Of a DNA stretch of 64,000 nucleotides, positions 13,548 to 62,990 are shown one piece after another; the stretch's first letter is position 1, and every line of letters begins with the position of its first letter. Under the pieces are notes generated by a model. The model made no database searches and was not told the DNA's origin. It worked only from the letters and a program-made list of their open reading frames with translations. The position numbers were made by a program, and so were the translations under genes. This DNA comes from Octopus vulgaris. Its lineage: Eukaryota. Location: assembly GCA_951406725.2 (NCBI GenBank), contig OX597837.1, positions 39,990,001 to 40,054,000 of the forward strand, written 5' to 3'.

Positions 13548-14453
13548 TCATAAATTATCTTTACAAGTTCCACAACTTAATGTATTGTATCGTCTTTGTC
13601 GAGTAGACTTTACCATTTTCTTTGACCGGCATTTCGTCTGTATATGTCCAATTTTGCCACACTTAGAACAGGTTTTATATTCGAAGGGGCAATCTTTCCT
13701 CAAATGTTGATTTCCGCATCCATAGCACCGATTTGAATTTAAATTTTTCCTTCTTTCTGTACTTTCCTTACACATTTGTACACTATTATTCTTGTCTTCT
13801 ATCTTTCTTGTATCATCTCGAAGGTTTATTATTTGTTGGCATTCCTCAGCCACATTCTGCAAAGTGAGTTTCACATCTTGATTCAACTTTGATAATATTC
13901 TTTTTCTAAGTTCCGCGTCTTCCGTTGCCACTAGCCCTTTAACGAATACTAGGCTCTTGAACATATCTGGCGTTAATTCTTCCAGCTTAAACCTTTCGCA
14001 AGCCTTATTAACCATACCGGAATATGTTACCAAATCGTCGGACTCGTTTTTTCTTCCAATTTAAACATTCCCATCGAATGTTAAACTGCGAACTTTTCTT
14101 GCTAAAAATATTAGTCAAAATATTTATCGTTTCATCAAAACACAACCCCGCGGGCTTTCTCGGCAAAATAAAGTTACAAAATTTTCGTGTTCCGGAGTAG
14201 CAAGCTTTCGCAAGAGGAGCATTTCCTTCCTTTCACTAGGCCATCCCTTGCATTCCTCTCGGAATATGTCTTCGTATCATCTGTAATATGCAGCAAAAGT
14301 AGTTCCTTCATCCGGATTGTAGGGAAATTCTTCGATGGAATTTGCAACACCATCTGCTGAAAATGATTCGGTCGTATTTCTCGACTGCAGTAACAATTCT
14401 GTTAACAACTGCTACTCTCGTTGATTTACGACTGCTTTCAGTAACTCTTCCAT
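13548..14453 (-). pseudogene. gag: Disrupted gag of a Ty3/gypsy (Mag-like) LTR retrotransposon
   Basis: ATG at 14453 (MEELLKAVVNQRE*...FPYNPDEGTTFAAYYR*YEDIF...NFILPRKP), stops and frameshifts, then ORF 14033-13548 with FKSLVFVKGL...ELRKRIL and two Zn knuckles (CYGCGNQHLRKDC, CSKCGKIGHIQTKC). pol is absent. Confidence 0.9.
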
Positions 14454-24641: not shown

Positions 24642-24706
24642 AATACCCAAGGCACACAGAGCTGCGCTCGGTAGTGAAGTGAAAGCACGCTATAAAAATA
24701 AAACTA

Positions 24707-24709
<3 letters not shown>
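24642..24709 (+). mobile_element. Last ~68 bp of the R4/Dong 3' UTR, inserted in (AAT)n
   Basis: atacccaaggcacacagagctgcgctcggtagtgaagtgaaagcacgctataaaaataaaactactg is identical to the unit ends at 58585-60312; AAT repeats on both sides. Confidence 0.85.
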
Positions 24710-37539: not shown

Positions 37540-38128
37540 GTCTTTTCTACTGGTGGCACAAAGCCTCAGATGTGTGGAGAGGTAACTAGTCGATTATATC
37601 GACCCCAGTACGTAACTGGTACTTATTTAATCGACCCCAAAAGGATGAAAGGCAAAGTCGACCTCGGCGGAATTTGAACTCAGAACATAGCGGCAGACGA
37701 AATACCTATTTCTTTACTGCCCACAAGTGGCGACACACAGAGAGGACAAACAAGGACAGACAAATGGATTAAGTCGATTATATCGACACCAGGTCGTAAC
37801 TGGTACTTATTTAATCGACCCCGAAAAGATGAAAGGCAAAGTCGACCTCGGCGGAATTTGAACTCAGAAGGTAGCGGCAGACTAAATACCTATTTCTATT
37901 TTTTTACTACCCACAAGGGGCTAAACAAAGAGCGGACAAACAAGGACAGACATAGGTATTATGTCGATTACCTCGGACCCAGTGCGTAACTGATACTTAA
38001 TTTATCGACCCCGAAAGGATGAAAGGCAAAGTCGATCTCGGCGGAATTTGAAATCACAACGTAACAGCAGACGAAAAACTGCTAAGCATTTCGCCCGGTT
38101 TGCTAACGTTTCTGCCAGCTCACCGCCT
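37540..38128 (-). mobile_element. SINE family B, concatemer (one head plus three ~180-bp body modules)
   Basis: aaaggatgaaaggcaaagtcgacctcggcggaatttgaac recurs at ~37640, 37823, 38013. Confidence 0.9.
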
Positions 38129-38159: not shown

Positions 38160-38590
38160 TATGCCCTGGTACAGTTCCAGATAGTGGCTCTCATGGCTTC
38201 TGATCTTAACTGATTGGAAGTGTTATCACGTGCATTGTTTTGTCATGGTAAAAAGATGGGCTACAGCAAATATTCTGTTCAATACCACAGATTTGTTGGT
38301 CAGTTGTTTGACCTTAACCAGTTGACCAATGTCCCTTAGTGGCTGACGAAATGTGCATCGCTTACCACAAGCAGAAGTAGTGGGGGAGCATCATTGCCAT
38401 GTGTTGAAAGGAATTCTTAGAGGTTTGAATAATTCACCTTTGGAAGCATGAGTGTTTCGTTCAACATTCTTAAACAATCCTTACTCAGGGAGCTTTTGAG
38501 AGGGATGGGCTACTCGACCTGAAGAAAATTCTAACTGGGCCCCACCTGTAAGGTCATGTGCAGTTTATCTTGATATGAGATCCCCATGCC
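38160..38590 (+). mobile_element. Element E (AAT-associated non-coding retroposon), 3'-truncated
   Basis: atgccctggtacagt...ggctctcatggcttctgatcttaactgattgg; matches 40174-40733 reversed. Confidence 0.85.
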
Positions 38591-40173: not shown

Positions 40174-40733
40174 TTGAGTGAGAGAGCAGTTCATGCCATC
40201 AAGGTGACACTGGGGTAAAATATACGAAGCCCAATATACCCATCATGACTACCCGTCTGATAAAGGTACACCAGGCACATGCATCACAACCATATGTGCG
40301 CGACATGGTGATCTCATATCAAGATAAACAGCACATGACCTTGCAGGTGGGGCCCAGTTAGAATTTTCTTCAGGTTGAGTAGCCCATCCCGCTCAAACGG
40401 TCTCTGAATAAGGGTTGTTTAAGGATGTTGAAAGAACCACCCATGTTTCCAGAGGCGAACTATTCAAACCCCAAAGAATCCCTCTCAACACATGGCTATG
40501 ATGCTCCTCCACTACTTCTGCTCGTGATCAGAGATGCACATATCGTCAGCCACTAAGGGACATGCTCAACTGGTTAAGGTCAAACAACTGACAAGCAAAT
40601 CTGTGGTATTGAGCAGAATATTTGCTGTAGCCCATCTTTTATACCAAGACAAAACAATGTACATGATAACACTTCCAATCAGTTAAGATCAGAAGCCATG
40701 AGAGCCACTGCCTGGTACTGCATCAGGGCATTT
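40174..40733 (-). mobile_element. Element E, full length (~560 bp), flanked by (AAT)n on both sides
   Basis: Minus strand aaatgccctgatgcagtaccaggc...ctgctctctcactc(aat)n; six pieces in the window. Confidence 0.88.
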
Positions 40734-40741
40734 ATTATCAA

Positions 40742-40788: not shown

Positions 40789-41248
40789 TATGTTTGACTT
40801 TTGCTTTATGTCTGTACAAGTTGGCTCCAAGTCTCACCCAGAGACCTCAAGAGACAACAGGTTGGAAGTTCTGTGCCATATATTTGGGGTTTTTTTTTGG
40901 TGTTGTACTAGTGAATATTTAATACATAAAAATAAAAAAAATAAAAAATAAAAATAAAAAAAAGTTTGTTTTAAACCTTGGGATTACATAGAGAGTATTT
41001 TGCGTATGATATGAGCAGTTCCCATGAGCACTATCTTTTGAATTTCTGCCATTTTGGGGTTTCCTGGTATCTGAGTTAGGTAGCAATCAGTCCCTTTCGC
41101 TATCATTCCCAGGGCACCTATGACAACAGGTATTGTTTTAGTCTTCAGCTTCCACATTTTGCTGATTTCTATTTCAAGATCTTTATATTTGCTCAGTTTT
41201 TGGTAGGTCTTGACATATACGTTTATATCGATTGGGACAGTCATATTA
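40788..41248 (-). mobile_element. R4/Dong LINE 3' end (endonuclease C-terminus, stop, 3' UTR) in (AAT)n
   Basis: MTVPIDINVYVKTYQKLSKYKDLEIEISKMWKLKTKTIPVVIGALG...IQKIVLMGTAHIIRKILSM*, open frame; the UTR ends directly in (AAT)n. Confidence 0.88.
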
Positions 41249-41249
41249 A

Positions 41250-41309
<60 letters not shown>

Positions 41310-41310
41310 C

Positions 41311-41580
41311 ATTCAGTGAGAGAGCAGCGAATGCCGTCAAAGTGACACTGGGGTACAAATATATGAAGCCAAACATACCCCTCATGACTACCCGTCTAAT
41401 AAGGGTACACCAGGCACATGCATCACAACCAAATTTACGCGACATGGTGAACTCATATCAAGATAAACACTGCATGAATTTGCAGGTCGGTGTCCAGTTA
41501 GCATTTTCGCCTGATTAAGTATCTCATCCTGCTTAAAAGGTCCCTAATTAACGGTTCTTTAAGGATGTTGAACGAAATAC
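41311..41580 (-). mobile_element. Element E, diverged 3' half
   Basis: agtgagagagcagcgaatgccgtcaaagtgacactgggg matches the 40174 copy. Confidence 0.85.
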
Positions 41581-41584
41581 ACAT

Positions 41585-42000
41585 TCAATGCAATACCAAA
41601 TAGGTTCATACATTCCATAATCGAAGAATGTGGGATCATATAGTATGCCCTAGGATAATCGATCCATGACATGGCTAAGTTAGGTTTCCTCCTCTTACAG
41701 ACTCAAAGTACTGTTTTGCCTACCTGGAGTTGATTCTTGGTACCTTTGCATTTACGCTTACATGTGTTCTGCTCATGTGGCAGGACTCTATTTTTCCCAG
41801 ATTTTCATACATTGACTCTGCGACTATTCCAGTCAATAATTTCCACCTAAGTGGCAGACAGGATATCGGCCTGTAATTGCCTACCGTATTGCCTTTTTCG
41901 ATATTTTTCAAGCACTGTCCTACGCATTGTCAACCACTCCGCTGTTACTTGGTCGGCATTTAACAAGGTATTGACAAGGTATTCGCGCGTGACATCCAAT
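41585..42000 (-). pseudogene. R4/Dong reverse transcriptase N-terminal fragment
   Basis: [42 protein letters not shown]...KGTKNQL...KPNLAMSWIDY with frameshifts. Confidence 0.82.
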
Positions 42001-43552: not shown

Positions 43553-44086
43553 TTTCAAAATATTTTCATCCTTCTCGACACAATCAAGGAGATCTTGTGC
43601 AAATGAAACCCGAGTGTGCTTTTGCTCAGCTGAAAGCAGTTTTAGCACAAACTTGGCAAACAAGTGTCTCGTTCCCAAATCTTCAGTTATAATGGCCTGA
43701 ACTGAACCGTAATTAATTTACACATCCTCTCATAACTCACGGATGGTGGTTCGACGATTTCCCTTCACAGCTACAAGCACATTTGCAATGTTTTTGACAG
43801 TTCTGCTGGTTGCGGGTCTCCCAGAACGTTCATCGATATCGACATTTTTTCGGCCATCTTGGAAACGTCTGAACCACTCGTACACTTGTGTGCGGCTCAT
43901 ACACTCCTCCCCATACACTTTCTGCCACTTTGCGCAGGCCTCTGAGCAGGTATCACCATAGCAACTTTCTCTGTCATGGTCAAGGCGACGATCACACGCC
44001 CCTTCCAAGTATTGCTGTGCACAACGGAAGTAAGCTAGAACGTTAAAACTTAATGCGCATGCACTACAGATTCCAATCTGTGCCAA
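43551..44086 (-). pseudogene. mariner transposase N-terminal (double HTH) fragment with 5' UTR
   Basis: VYGEECMSRTQVYEWFRRFQDGRKNVDIDERSGRPATS...RRTTIREL*...AKFVLKLLSAEQKHTRV. Confidence 0.9.
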
Positions 44087-44823
44087 TGGGAAAACAGATC
44101 TCCCGCCGATTTCATTAGGCAAATTTGGGGAAGTGTAATTCCCAGTCAATATCAGAGGAGAGCTGGAAGGTTTACTATTTGGTATTAGTGTTCTTAGATC
44201 GAGTGTTATGCTTGTAAGATCTAGGTGGGCGAGATTGTCTAACCGTAGTAATCTATACCCTTATCATTTGCCATATTTGTCTCCGATGACGGAATATCCC
44301 ATACTCTGGGCTATCCCAGAAAAAGCTGCAAGACGTTGAATTCTGTCTTCGAAACTCATTATGCAATTATTAATTGTCTGATAAATAAAGGGGGATATCG
44401 AACGTTCGTAGGCTTTACGTTATGTAAATAAATCGATTTTTGCTGTATTCAAATTCTCTATTTTAATTAATATTACACTACTCAATTTATATTCACATAT
44501 ATCGAATCAGATAGAAACATCTAATTGGACTACTAGAACACCATAATATGGATAGTACTGGTGTCTATTAAACACTAATATTAACGCAAGAAGACCAATT
44601 CCTCTAAATTCACAGATATATGGATAAACTGCAGGAAGCTAAGCTAGGATGTAAGACATCCCTGGAAAGAGCAATCTTTATCTTTACAAAACCTCATATA
44701 TATATGTACTTCTAATATAAGATAAAAATCCCCCCCCCCACCACCACAAAAAAAGATGCCATCAAAGTGGCAGCATATTAAAATACCTTTCAAGGCGAAA
44801 ATTATACACAATTTATAAACAAG

Positions 44824-57601: not shown

Positions 57602-58498
57602 AAATGCCCTGATGCAGTGCCAGGCAGTGGCTCTCATGGCTTCTGATCTTAACTGATTGGAAGTGTTATCATCTACATTGTTTTGTCTTGGTATAAAAGA
57701 TGGGCTGCAGCGAATATTCTGCTCAATACCACAGTTTTGCTTGTCAGTTGTTTGACCTTAACCAGTTGACCAATGTCCCTTAGTGGCCGATGATATGTGC
57801 ATCTCTGTCTCGAGCAGAAGTAGTGGGGGAGTATCCTAGCCACGTGTTGAAAGGAATTCTTTGGGGTTTGAATAATTAAGGCATTGTACCTATAGGAGAA
57901 AATATTATTATTATTGAGTGAGAGTGCAGTGCATGCCATCAAAGTGACACCGGGGTAAAATATACGAAGCCCAGTATACCCATCATGAATACCCGTCTGA
58001 TAAGGTTACACTAGGTACATGCATCACAACCATATGTGCGTGACATGGTAATCTCATATCAAGATAAACAGCGCCTGACCTTGCAGGTGGGGCCCAGTTA
58101 AAATTTTCTTCTGGTCGAGTAACCCATTCCGCTCAAAAGGTCCCCGAATAAGGATTGTTTAAGGATGTTGTACGAACCACCCATTTTCCCAAAGGTGAAC
58201 TATCCAAACCTCAAAGGATTCCTTTCAACAATTAAGTGTTTCGTTTAACATCCTTAAACAGTCCTTATTCAGGGACCTATTAAACGGGATGGGCTACTCG
58301 ACTAGAAAATATCTAACTAGACCCCAATGCGATATCATACGCTGATTTGTTTTTACATAAGATGACCATATCGCGCACATATGGTTGTGATGCATGTGCC
58401 TAGTGTACCCTTATCAGACGGGTAGTCATGATGGGTATACTGGGCTTCGTATATTTTACCCCAGTGTCACTTTGATGGCATGTACTGCTCTCTCACTC

Positions 58499-58500
<2 letters not shown>
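57602..58500 (+). mobile_element. Element E, split by an inverted E copy (5' part 57602-57880, 3' part 58236-58500)
   Basis: Starts aaatgccctgatgcagtgcc after (AAT)n and ends ctctctcactc(aat)n. Confidence 0.85.
57881..58229 (-). mobile_element. Element E 3' half, inverted, nested in another E
   Basis: Reverse complement of the E 3' half; flanked by the direct repeat AATTAAG (57874-57880, 58230-58236). Confidence 0.85.
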
Positions 58501-58578
<78 letters not shown>

Positions 58579-58584
58579 TAATAA

Positions 58585-58815
58585 TTCAGACAAATACATA
58601 ACAAAAACACCAGGACTTACAAACACATATAACATACAGAAAATTGCACTACTAGGCACTGCACACATCCTACGCAGAACATTTTCCATACAATAACCAT
58701 CAGAGCATCACAACAAATCACAGCACATACCCAAGGCACACAGAGCTGCGCTCGGTAGTGAAGTGAAAGCACGCTATAAAAATAAAACTACTGAATAATA
58801 ATAATAATAATAATG

Positions 58816-58897
<82 letters not shown>

Positions 58898-59134
58898 TAA
58901 TAATTCAGACAAATACATAACAAAAATACCAGGACTTACAAACACATATAACATACAGAAAATTGCACTACTAGGCACTGCACACATCCTACGCAGAACA
59001 CTTTCCATACAATAACCATCAGAGCATCACAACAAATCACAGCACATACCCAAGGCACACAGAGCTGCGCTCGGTAGTGAAGTGAAAGCACGCTATAAAA
59101 ATAAAACTACTGAATAATAATAATAATAATAATG

Positions 59135-59204
<70 letters not shown>

Positions 59205-59441
59205 TAATAATTCAGACAAATACATAACAAAAATACCAGGACTTACAAACACATATAACATACAGAAAATTGCACTACTAGGCACTGCACACATCCTACG
59301 CAGAACACTTTCCATACAATAACCATCAGAGCATCACAACAAATCACAGCACATACCCAAGGCACACAGAGCTGCGCTCGGTAGTGAAGTGAAAGCATGC
59401 TATAAAAATAAAACTACTGAATAATAATAATAATAATAATG

Positions 59442-59523
<82 letters not shown>

Positions 59524-59772
59524 TAATAATTCAGACAAATACATAACAAAAATACCAGGACTTACAAACACATATAACATACAGAAAATTGCACTACTAG
59601 GCACTGCACACATCCTACGCAGAACACTTTCCATACAATAACCATCAGAGCATCACAACAAATCACAGCACATACCCAAGGCACACAGAGCTGCGCTCGG
59701 TAGTGAAGTGAAAGCACGCTATAAAAATAAAAATAAAACTACTGAATAATAATAATAATGATAATAATAATG

Positions 59773-59842
<70 letters not shown>

Positions 59843-60312
59843 TAATAATTCAGACAAATACATAACAAAAACACCAGGACTTACAAACACATATAACATA
59901 CAGAAAATTGCACTACTAGGCACTGCACACATCCTACGCAGAACATTTTCCATACAATAACCATCAGAGCATCACAACAAATCACAGCACATACCCAAGG
60001 CACACAGAGCTGCGCTCGGTAGTGAGGTGAAAGCACGCTATAAAAATAAAAACTACTGAATAATAATAATAATAATAATGGTAATAATAATAATGATAAT
60101 AATTCAGACAAATACATAACAAAAACACCAGGACTTACAAACACATATAACATACAGAAAATTGCACTACTAGGCACTGCACACATCCTACGCAGAACAC
60201 TTTCCATACAATAACCATCAGAGCATCACAACAAATCACAGCACATACCCAAGGCACACAGAGCTGCGCTCGGTAGTGAAGTGAAAGCACGCTATAAAAA
60301 TAAAAACTACTG
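58585..60312 (+). repeat. Tandem array of six ~210-bp R4/Dong LINE 3' ends separated by variable (AAT)n
   Basis: Units at 58585, 58904, 59211, 59530, 59849, 60103, each SDKYITK(T/I)PGLTNTYNIQKIALLGTAHILRRT(L/F)SIQ* plus 3' UTR; homologous to IQKIVLMGTAHIIRKILSM* at 40984. Confidence 0.93.
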
Positions 60313-60354
60313 AATAATAATAATAATGATAATAATAATGATAATAATAATAAT

Positions 60355-60565
60355 CCTTTCTGCAATAAGCACAAGACCTGAAATTTGAGGGAGGGGGATA
60401 GTAGATTACATTGACCCCAGTACTCAACTGGTACGTAATTTATCGACCCCGAAAGGATGAAAGGCAAAGTTGACTTCAGCTAAATCAGAACTTGGATCGT
60501 GCCAACGGGCAAAATAGCGCTAAGCATTTCATTTCGTCCAGCGCGCTAACGATTCTGTGAGCTCA
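60355..60565 (-). mobile_element. SINE family B
   Basis: tttatcgaccccgaaaggatgaaaggcaaagttgac. Confidence 0.8.
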
Positions 60566-60567
60566 AT

Positions 60568-60638
<71 letters not shown>

Positions 60639-60689
60639 TAATAATAATAATTATGTGTGCAGTAAGCACTATACCTGAAACATTGGTGC

Positions 60690-60870
60690 CACGACAAAGT
60701 GCTGAGCGCCATTTCGTTAATTTTTTGCATTCTGAGATCAGACTCCCCAGAGGTCGACTTTGCCTTTAATCCTTTCGAGGTCGATGAAACAAGTACCAGT
60801 TGAACGGTTTTGGGGGGGGGTAGGGTGTAGATATAATCGGCTAGCCTCTTCCCCGAAAATTCTGACCACG
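60690..60870 (+). mobile_element. SINE family B, degenerate
   Basis: gaggtcgactttgcctttaatcctttcgaggtcgatgaaacaagtaccag. Confidence 0.7.
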
Positions 60871-61808: not shown

Positions 61809-61913
<105 letters not shown>

Positions 61914-61921
61914 TGTGTGTG

Positions 61922-62034
61922 TATGGTAAAAATGTTACTTTCCAACCACATGGTTCCAGGTTCAGTCCGTATAGTCTCGGGCTGACAAAACCCTTGTGAG
62001 TGGATTTCGTAGAGGGGAAACTGAAAGAAGCTCG

Positions 62035-62100
<66 letters not shown>

Positions 62101-62215
62101 ATGTATAGTAAAAATATTGCTTTCGACCTACATGGTTCCGAGTTCAGTCCGTATAGTCTCGGGCTGACTAAACCCTTGTGAGTGGATTTATTAGAGGGGA
62201 AACTGGAAGAAGCCC

Positions 62216-62270
<55 letters not shown>

Positions 62271-62489: not shown

Positions 62490-62605
62490 TATTGGGTCAT
62501 CCCATAAAAAATCCGAGTTTTTTTACACGCCTTTTATTCTTCAAAATTAAGATAAACAAAGTTCGTTTTCAATGTGAAATATACTCTCCTTCATTTTGTA
62601 CAATG
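62490..62605 (-). mobile_element. mariner right end
   Basis: Minus strand IVQNEGEYISH* then AATAAA and TIR-like ...ttttatgggatgacccaaTA. Confidence 0.65.
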
Positions 62606-62606
62606 C

Positions 62607-62990
62607 GAAATGCTTAACGGTATTTCGTCTGTCTTTACGTTCTGAGTTCAAATTCCACCAAGGTAGACTTAACCTGTCATCCTTTCGGGGTCGATAAATT
62701 AAATACCAGTTACGTACTGGGTCGATCTATTCTACTGGCCCCTCCCTCAAAATTTCTAGAGTAGAAAAGATATTTAAGGCGGCGAGCTGGCAGAATTGTT
62801 AGCATGCCGGGCGAAATGCCAAACGGTATTTCGCCCATCGCTACATTCTGAGTTCAAATTCCTCCGAGATCGACTTTGCTTTTCATCCTTTAGGTGTCGA
62901 TAAATTAAGTACCAGTTGCGTATTGGGGTAGATCTAATCGACTACCCCACTTCCCTCAAATCCCGGGGCTTCTGCTTAGAGTAGAAAAGA
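62607..62990 (+). mobile_element. Two tandem SINE family B copies
   Basis: ttctgagttcaaatt at ~62640 and ~62846; full head ggcggcgagctggcag at 62778. Confidence 0.85.

What the first reader, a model, noticed from the sequence alone, without database searches (positions are those of the whole stretch)
58585..60312. Array of six identically truncated R4/Dong 3' ends with variable (AAT)n spacers: a LINE tail turning into a satellite
Seen: six ~210-bp units, each with the last 36 codons of an R4/Dong ORF (IQKIALLGTAHILRRT) and the 3' UTR, separated by AAT tracts of about 110, 98, 110, 104 and 44 bp. All start at the same base (gataataa|ttcagac). Spacers share interruptions (an early GAT/GGT and a terminal GAT-AAT-AAT). 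Diagnostic sites group the units: 1 and 5 share acatttt, 2-4 share aaaatacc, 5 and 6 share an extra A. Established: Dong elements target (TAA)n. Inference: one insertion, flanked by its own target on both sides, was amplified by unequal exchange or rolling-circle reverse transcription of a circularised 3' fragment. Each unit regenerates the target site, so the array can keep growing and attract further insertions.
Basis: partly seen in the sequence, partly recalled or inferred. Interest (0 to 1): 0.75.

Follow-up and report, generated by a model that had tools for sequence, protein, structure and literature searches.

The report
Dong retrotransposon tails forming mini-arrays
Six back-to-back copies of the last 208 bases of a jumping gene, each set in the (AAT)n repeat that this gene inserts into, likely arose when one insertion was copied by DNA exchange between its flanking repeats; 21 other places in the same genome show the same pattern, so this is a recurring but small-scale route from a jumping gene to a tandem repeat, not yet a satellite.

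Summary
In detail: six 208-214-bp 3' ends of a young R4/Dong-like LINE (at least 9,631 genomic copies, about 4.05 kb full length) in (AAT)n. The junction GATAATAAT|TCAGAC occurs 6 times in the genome, all here, so this is local amplification, not repeated insertion or a dispersed mini-element. The units share rare derived variants in a non-tree-like patchwork, and the spacers join right-flank interruptions to left-flank ones. Both point to DNA-level unequal exchange, with the AAT tracts likely acting as direct repeats. It is recurrent: 22 of 23 loci with three or more close units contain units with identical breakpoints (up to 16 units). Some are clear recombinants or a duplicated pair of insertions, and a second AAT-tailed repeat does the same. 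Rolling-circle reverse transcription is not needed, though not excluded as a first step. 'Satellite' overstates 1.7 kb. Read data were uninformative. This is a variant of the known TE-dimer, unequal-exchange route.

The parts
57602..58498 (+). Left flank: non-coding AAT-tailed dispersed repeat ('B', SINE-like, at least 16,335 copies) with an inverted piece of B nested inside; its tail is the left target tract
   Evidence: (inverted arms 57903-58068 / 58346-58511)
58499..58585 (+). Left AAT tract S0: [AAT]26 GAT AAT AAT
58586..58793 (+). Unit 1 (208 bp): last 36 codons plus stop (58586-58696) and 3' UTR; variant T97
58794..58904 (+). Spacer 1: [AAT]7 GAT [AAT]26 GAT AAT AAT
58905..59112 (+). 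Unit 2 (208 bp); variant T23
59113..59211 (+). Spacer 2: [AAT]7 GAT [AAT]22 GAT AAT AAT
59212..59419 (+). Unit 3 (208 bp); variants T23, T187
59420..59530 (+). Spacer 3: [AAT]7 GAT [AAT]26 GAT AAT AAT
59531..59744 (+). Unit 4 (214 bp); T23 and a 6-nt duplication near the 3' end
59745..59849 (+). Spacer 4: [AAT]5 GAT [AAT]3 GAT [AAT]22 GAT AAT AAT, i.e. right-flank prefix joined to left-flank-type suffix
59850..60058 (+). Unit 5 (209 bp); T97, G177, extra A; mosaic of U1-type 5' part and U6-type 3' end
60059..60103 (+). Spacer 5: [AAT]7 GGT [AAT]4 GAT AAT AAT
60104..60312 (+). Unit 6 (209 bp); extra A
60313..60354 (+). Right AAT tract S6: [AAT]5 GAT [AAT]3 GAT [AAT]4
60355..60570 (.). Right flank: older SINE-like dispersed repeat (mean 76% identity to other copies)

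Best explanation
The array is six copies of one 5'-truncated 3' end (208 bp) of a young Dong/R4-type LINE lying in an (AAT)n tract, and it likely grew by DNA-level unequal exchange in which the AAT tracts on both sides served as direct repeats. Step 1 (target shown; target-primed reverse transcription inferred from the family): a copy truncated at TCAGAC inserted into an AAT tract and so ended up with about 40-90 bp of AAT on each side. Step 2 (inferred): misalignment of the right tract with the left tract on a sister chromatid or homologue gave a dimer whose spacer joins right-flank interruptions to left-flank ones and copies the private GAT-AAT-AAT junction. Step 3 (copying between units shown; exact order inferred): further exchanges, now also inside the 208-bp units, raised the number to six and shuffled new mutations, while slippage changed spacer lengths. 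The units are dead, non-coding passengers. Each spacer remains a target for new insertions.
For: The junction GATAATAAT|TCAGAC has 6 matches in 2.8 Gb, all in this array. The plain AAT junction at the same base occurs at 22 other places, none an array of this unit. Array variants are rare in dispersed C1 copies (T23 1 of 71, T97 0 of 77, G177 0 of 77, extra A 0 of 55) yet shared among units (P=0.0013 if independent). There are three four-gamete conflicts. Spacer 4 equals right-flank prefix plus left-flank-type suffix; the same hybrid spacers occur in L185, L174 and L204. Genome-wide, 22 of 23 loci with three or more close units contain identical breakpoints, each locus with its own; in 11 the first unit shares the breakpoint too. 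Same-breakpoint dimers exist as intermediates: 4 of 65. L179 is a duplicated pair of two different insertions; L178, L173, L175 and L177 have units with one neighbour's 5' end and another's 3' variants. Repeat B behaves the same way in 9 of 12 loci examined.
Against: No crossover or copy-number difference between individuals was observed; the two read calls could not resolve the locus. The first duplication cannot be told apart from an RT-made or circle-made dimer by sequence alone. Two of the three four-gamete conflicts involve the tail type and two involve the extra A, both slippage-prone characters that could recur. The U4 duplication is common in the family (13 of 55), and the tails fall into two classes, which a second founder would also explain. 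No control with AAT-flanked non-retroposon DNA was run, and repeat B probably uses the same enzyme.
Confidence: 0.72

Rival explanations
1. Hidden double insertion: two independent copies A and B inserted in tandem, exchange between their homologous 3' ends multiplied B's 5' junction, and A was later lost by recombination between AAT tracts.
For: This route is visible elsewhere: 11 of 23 arrays begin with a differently truncated unit, and hybrids exist (L173, L175, L177, L178). In the window, U1-U3 have the standard 3' end with a [AAT]7 GAT tail, whereas U4 and U6 have altered ends with a [AAT]5 GAT [AAT]3 GAT tail.
Against: No trace of an A copy upstream. One 6-nt slip converts one tail type into the other. 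Spacer 4 and the loss of A need AAT-AAT exchange anyway. No unit carries the common subfamily variants T164, A102/G108 or C78.
Confidence: 0.11
2. The reverse transcriptase made the first concatemer: on reaching the 5' end of a short RNA it jumped back to the RNA's own AAT tail (or copied a circular RNA) several times; DNA exchange only shuffled the array later.
For: This family does reiterate its 5' ends: 6 of 88 junctions carry 17-76-nt tandem copies that start at the breakpoint, four of them in truncated copies. End-to-end template jumping is reported for the related R2 enzyme (mentioned in a passage of PMC2718515; the primary paper was not read). Some tail interruptions are shared between dispersed copies.
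Against: It cannot produce derived variants shared by non-adjacent units, L179, or A/B hybrids. It needs an extra partial jump to give U1 the same junction in all 11 homogeneous arrays. In L204 the spacer keeps the end of a genomic (AAG)n left flank. No dispersed copy carries the junction.
Confidence: 0.1
3. A DNA circle formed by recombination between the two AAT tracts was amplified by rolling-circle replication and reinserted at the locus.
For: It also predicts a hybrid spacer and one junction. Some arrays are very homogeneous (L184, 16 units; L169, 14 units).
Against: It predicts near-identical units and spacers and some reinsertion at other AAT tracts; here there are two spacer types, a patchwork of variants, and no ectopic copy of the junction. 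Array sizes form a graded series from 2 upward.
Confidence: 0.04
4. Assembly artefact: one or two units expanded by the assembler, or two haplotypes joined.
For: Not excluded by reads; one of the other arrays (L184) abuts an N gap.
Against: All six units differ from each other, with structured sharing of substitutions; 21 other loci show the pattern with their own breakpoints and with recombinant structure.
Confidence: 0.03

Closest known systems
TE tandem dimers expanding by unequal exchange (McGurk & Barbash 2018, PMC5932611; abstract, section 7, part 1 of 2 of section 15 and passages read)
   Same: Target preference regenerates the site and gives tail-to-internal dimers of non-LTR elements with different 5' truncations; dimers can expand (hobo to about 16 copies). 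Most close pairs here and 11 of 23 arrays fit this.
   Different: That paper states that non-LTR elements do not provide their own substrate for unequal exchange, and the word microsatellite does not occur in its main text. Here the (AAT)n target on both sides likely acts like an LTR pair, so one insertion would suffice; the units are 70-340-bp tails, not whole elements.
Dong / R4-clade elements targeting (TAA)n (PMC7998251 and PMC3812793, passages read; octopus Dong-R4 in PMC9115989, passages, and PMC13282606, first third and passages)
   Same: RT plus C-terminal CCHC knuckle and restriction-like endonuclease motifs, no N-terminal zinc finger, (TAA)n target, about 4 kb; Dong-R4 is the largest recently active LINE group listed for an octopus.
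   Different: The passages I read describe no same-breakpoint arrays of 3' ends; supplements were not read.
Tandem R1 arrays in Drosophila rDNA (PMC2718515, passages read)
   Same: Head-to-tail copies separated by a regenerated target.
   Different: There they are attributed to repeated insertion into a 14-bp TSD; here repeated insertion is excluded for this locus by the private junction.
Microsatellite-bounded tandem duplications at sea-urchin Sp185/333 genes (PMC3091723, passages read)
   Same: Tandem segments bounded by microsatellites, proposed to drive the duplication.
   Different: 4.5-kb gene segments at one cluster; here a retrotransposon creates the two-sided microsatellite boundary by inserting, at thousands of sites.

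Membership tests
R4/Dong clade | Reverse transcriptase domain of RLE-type non-LTR elements | tested here: met
   Pfam RVT_1 E=7.9e-33 in the 813-aa ORF of natural copy L116, which ends in the window's peptide; all 5 PDB sequence hits are R2-type retrotransposon proteins, best E=5e-37
R4/Dong clade | C-terminal CCHC knuckle and restriction-like endonuclease | tested here: met
   CRIC...HIISSC and RPD...D...KE.EK motifs read in P0001 (motif names recalled); alignment to R2 proteins runs to residue 794; zf-RVT hit is below the Pfam cut-off
R4/Dong clade | No N-terminal zinc fingers (unlike R2 and Utopia/NeSL) | tested here: met
   First Cys at residue 539 of the 741-aa reading frame of full-length copy L126
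R4/Dong clade | Diverged N-terminal Myb/SANT-like domain (PMC7998251) | tested here: inconclusive
   Conserved four-helix domain, pLDDT 85. Several Myb/SANT-type chains score Z 4.3-5.3 (Zeste rmsd 2.8 over 67 residues; ISWI SANT; R2), tied with unrelated folds and below Z 8; Foldseek none at E<=0.001; Atlas Myb lead 0.84
R4/Dong clade | (TAA)n target | tested here: met
   AAT run after 87 of 89 3' ends and before 61 of 88 aligned 5' ends of C1 copies (some misses are internal deletions or breaks in the alignment)
R4/Dong clade | RT phylogeny with named Dong, R4 and Rex6 references | not tested
   No named Dong or R4 sequence was returned; the nearest 120 listed proteins (up to 61% identity) are mostly unnamed, the named ones from coral, fish, shrimp and beetle
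Satellite DNA | Long contiguous array of many monomers | tested here: not met
   6 units, 1.7 kb; the largest related array has 16 units and abuts a gap. The search covered exact 11-mers and periods up to 411 bp in one assembly only
Satellite DNA | Exchange or homogenisation between monomers | tested here: met
   Shared derived variants and four-gamete conflicts; array-wide private variants in L169 and L184
Non-autonomous mini-element (SINE-like derivative) | Dispersed copies with the same private 5' end | tested here: not met
   0 copies of the junction outside the array; the breakpoint is not special, a neighbouring junction was commoner among the listed C1 matches

The most novel reading that the evidence does not exclude
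A microsatellite-targeting LINE builds its own tandem repeats: insertion turns one AAT tract into an LTR-like pair, and the still-active Dong endonuclease nicks every spacer (or its RT reiterates short templates), so array growth is driven by the element's enzyme and such arrays are seeds of new satellites whose turnover tracks LINE activity.
Probability: 0.2. Interest if true: 0.65.

Novelty: new variant of a known kind. Interest (0 to 1): 0.4.

Why it matters
How dispersed retrotransposons become tandem repeats is usually inferred from old satellites. This genome shows the intermediate stages side by side for one young family: single insertions, pairs with different breakpoints, same-breakpoint dimers, recombinant trimers, a duplicated dimer, and arrays of 6, 14 and 16 units. 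It suggests a route missing from the scheme I read: a microsatellite target flanks the insertion on both sides and can replace an LTR pair or a second insertion. The roughly two dozen loci make the rate and mechanism testable with long reads from a few individuals. The locus itself has no evident function.

Tried and rejected
Six independent insertions at a truncation hotspot: rejected. About 22 of at least 9,631 copies share the breakpoint and none shares the junction. A dispersed mini-element: rejected. Units copied from different source subfamilies: not supported, as the variants are rare in 71-77 dispersed copies. Read checks: laid four runs on 58200-60700 but skipped the repeats, and no piece spanned a spacer. 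One search found G177-bearing words at depths of hundreds to thousands (so G177 exists elsewhere in the family), and no piece carried both G177 and the extra A. Neither call says anything about unit number. An all-against-all BLAST timed out and was replaced by mapping to one natural full-length copy. The fold search of the N-terminal domain gave no decisive match. Open reading frames in the window were mostly simple-repeat frames; the output showed no host exon near the array, but introns were not modelled. Literature searches returned no paper whose listing or read passages describe same-breakpoint arrays of Dong 3' ends; subscription journals, Repbase and supplements were not covered. Earlier findings of this scan: none by sequence; those by place concern other elements.

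Full report
Observation. The six units, their lengths (208, 208, 208, 214, 209, 209 bp), the spacers (111, 99, 111, 105, 45 bp), the common start GATAATAAT|TCAGAC and the 36-codon peptide are as described. Written in triplets, the left tract is [AAT]26 GAT AAT AAT and the right tract is [AAT]5 GAT [AAT]3 GAT [AAT]4. Spacers 1-3 are [AAT]7 GAT [AAT]22-26 GAT AAT AAT, spacer 4 is [AAT]5 GAT [AAT]3 GAT [AAT]22 GAT AAT AAT, and spacer 5 is [AAT]7 GGT [AAT]4 GAT AAT AAT. The variable characters are T23 (U2-U4), T97 (U1, U5), G177 (U5), T187 (U3), an extra A (U5, U6) and a 6-nt duplication (U4).

The parent element. An 18-mer of the unit occurs 9,631 times. I fetched 80 of 87 merged regions around the first 100 listed matches, which held 92 copies. 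Full length is about 4.05 kb (L126). Natural copy L116 has an 813-aa frame with RT (Pfam E=7.9e-33), a CCHC knuckle and endonuclease motifs, and it ends in the window's peptide. All five PDB sequence hits are R2-type proteins. There is no N-terminal Cys, and a conserved four-helix N-terminal domain gives only tied, low Z-scores to Myb/SANT-type chains. AAT runs follow 87 of 89 3' ends and precede 61 of 88 aligned 5' ends. This matches the description of Dong in PMC7998251 (passages), and Dong-R4 is the largest recently active LINE group listed in PMC13282606. Clade membership by tree was not tested.

One origin. The plain junction AATAATAAT|TCAGAC is found at 22 dispersed places, none an array of this unit. 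A neighbouring junction was commoner among the listed C1 matches, so the breakpoint is ordinary microhomology. The GAT-containing junction has 6 matches, all in this array. Five further independent insertions at a breakpoint used by about 22 of 9,631 copies would have odds near 1e-13 (my arithmetic). Independent insertion and a dispersed mini-element are therefore rejected.

Copying at DNA level. Among dispersed copies T23 is seen in 1 of 71, T97 in 0 of 77, G177 in 0 of 77, T187 in 3 of 77, the extra A in 0 of 55 scored tails and the duplication in 13 of 55; 15 of 92 copies were dropped for indels or truncation and 37 tails were not scored. Seven substitutions falling on only four sites has P=0.0013 under independent mutation weighted by the family's site rates. 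T97 against the extra A, T23 against tail type, and the extra A against tail type each show all four gametes; the extra A and the tail type could recur by slippage. The units differ from the majority by 1.2 substitutions on average, against a median of 2 for 71 dispersed copies, so the array is young but not new.

Genome-wide. There are 204 close same-strand pairs (period up to 347 bp). A triple pattern (period up to 411 bp) listed 60 matches: 23 loci of this family including the window's, plus one unrelated repeat. All 23 were examined. In 22, at least two units share a breakpoint, a different one at each locus; the exception is L170, and L173 and L176 are the weakest calls. In 11 loci the first unit shares it as well (L169 with 14 units, L171, L174, L179, L180, L183, L184 with 16 units next to a gap, L185, L186, L188 and this one). 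In the other 11 a differently truncated copy leads. L178 shows unit 2 with the 5' end of unit 3 and the 3' variants of unit 1; L173, L175 and L177 are similar. L179 is a 118/122 pair duplicated as a block. Neither structure can come from copying one RNA. Spacers in L185 and L174 join the right-flank prefix to the left-flank suffix, and L204 keeps the end of a genomic (AAG)n flank. Among other close pairs, 0 of 25 and 4 of 40 (40 of the 48 remaining listed pairs were fetched) have identical breakpoints; three of the four share private variants. So most pairs are independent insertions into a neighbour's tail, and a minority are duplicates. In L180 a 198-nt copy without the array's variants sits between 126-nt units, which fits a later insertion into a spacer. 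The non-coding AAT-tailed repeat B that forms the left flank (16,335 matches) gives same-breakpoint arrays in 9 of 12 distinct B loci examined, from the first 20 loci returned. B probably uses the same enzyme, so it is a replicate and not an independent control.

Mechanism. Shown: the target, the single junction, copying between units, hybrid spacers, recurrence. Inferred: that the first duplication used the two AAT tracts as direct repeats, and that the exchange is unequal crossover or template switching. Against a simple story: 6 of 88 junctions show short tandem reiterations of the 5' end, so the enzyme or the repair step can repeat sequence at insertion, which keeps an RT-made first concatemer alive (0.10). 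The two tail classes keep a lost second founder alive (0.11). Reads did not resolve the locus, so unit number rests on the assembly.

Comparison and novelty. McGurk and Barbash (PMC5932611) describe dimers formed by target preference and expansion by unequal exchange, and state that non-LTR elements bring no substrate of their own. The review PMC12628747 (passages and part 1 of 2 of section 6) lists the same routes. Microsatellite-bounded duplication is proposed for sea-urchin genes (PMC3091723, passages). The combination, a microsatellite-targeting LINE whose target likely acts as an LTR pair and yields same-breakpoint tail arrays at many loci, was not found in searches; supplements and most subscription papers were not seen. 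Verdict: real, recurrent, mechanistically ordinary in its parts, a new variant of a known kind; a mini-array rather than a satellite. Interest 0.40.

Noticed in passing
L133:1850-2170 (read on the minus strand), L089:4440-4580, L103, L116, L126:639-730: Tandem reiteration of the element's 5' end starting at the breakpoint in 6 of 88 copies. L133 has 41-nt units x4 preceded by 21-nt units x6 or more; L089 repeats 76 nt that include upstream target DNA. This may record RT jumping or repair slippage at the 5' junction.
   Followed up: partly
L184 (G000:C23:1870200-1879400): 16 near-identical 132-nt units with (AAC)/(AGC) spacers abutting an assembly gap; the array may be longer than assembled.
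   Followed up: partly
L177 (G000:C10:41195000-41199400): The repeated unit contains an inverted piece of the element's own 3' end, a fold-back structure amplified three times.
   Followed up: no
window 57602-58498; also 38161-38588, 40176-40738, 41312-41585: Repeat B: non-coding, AAT-tailed, variably 5'-truncated, at least 16,335 copies; likely a Dong-mobilised SINE-like partner. Here an inverted B piece is nested in B and gives a 166-nt inverted repeat.
   Followed up: partly
window 40984-41457 (minus strand); L061, L134: 3' end of a second, distinct Dong-like family (...QKIVLMGTAHIIRKILSM), often nested with the first.
   Followed up: no
window 24643-24709: Solo 67-nt 3' tip of the same element before a long AAT tract.
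   Followed up: no
window 43730-44260 (minus) and 13548-14060 (minus): A mariner-transposase-like fragment and a gag-like fragment with CCHC knuckles, by eye from translations (labels recalled, not searched).
   Followed up: no
window 37588-38076, 61856-62219, 62605-62927: Older tandem copies (81-86% alike) of short repeats with periods of 182-206 bp.
   Followed up: no
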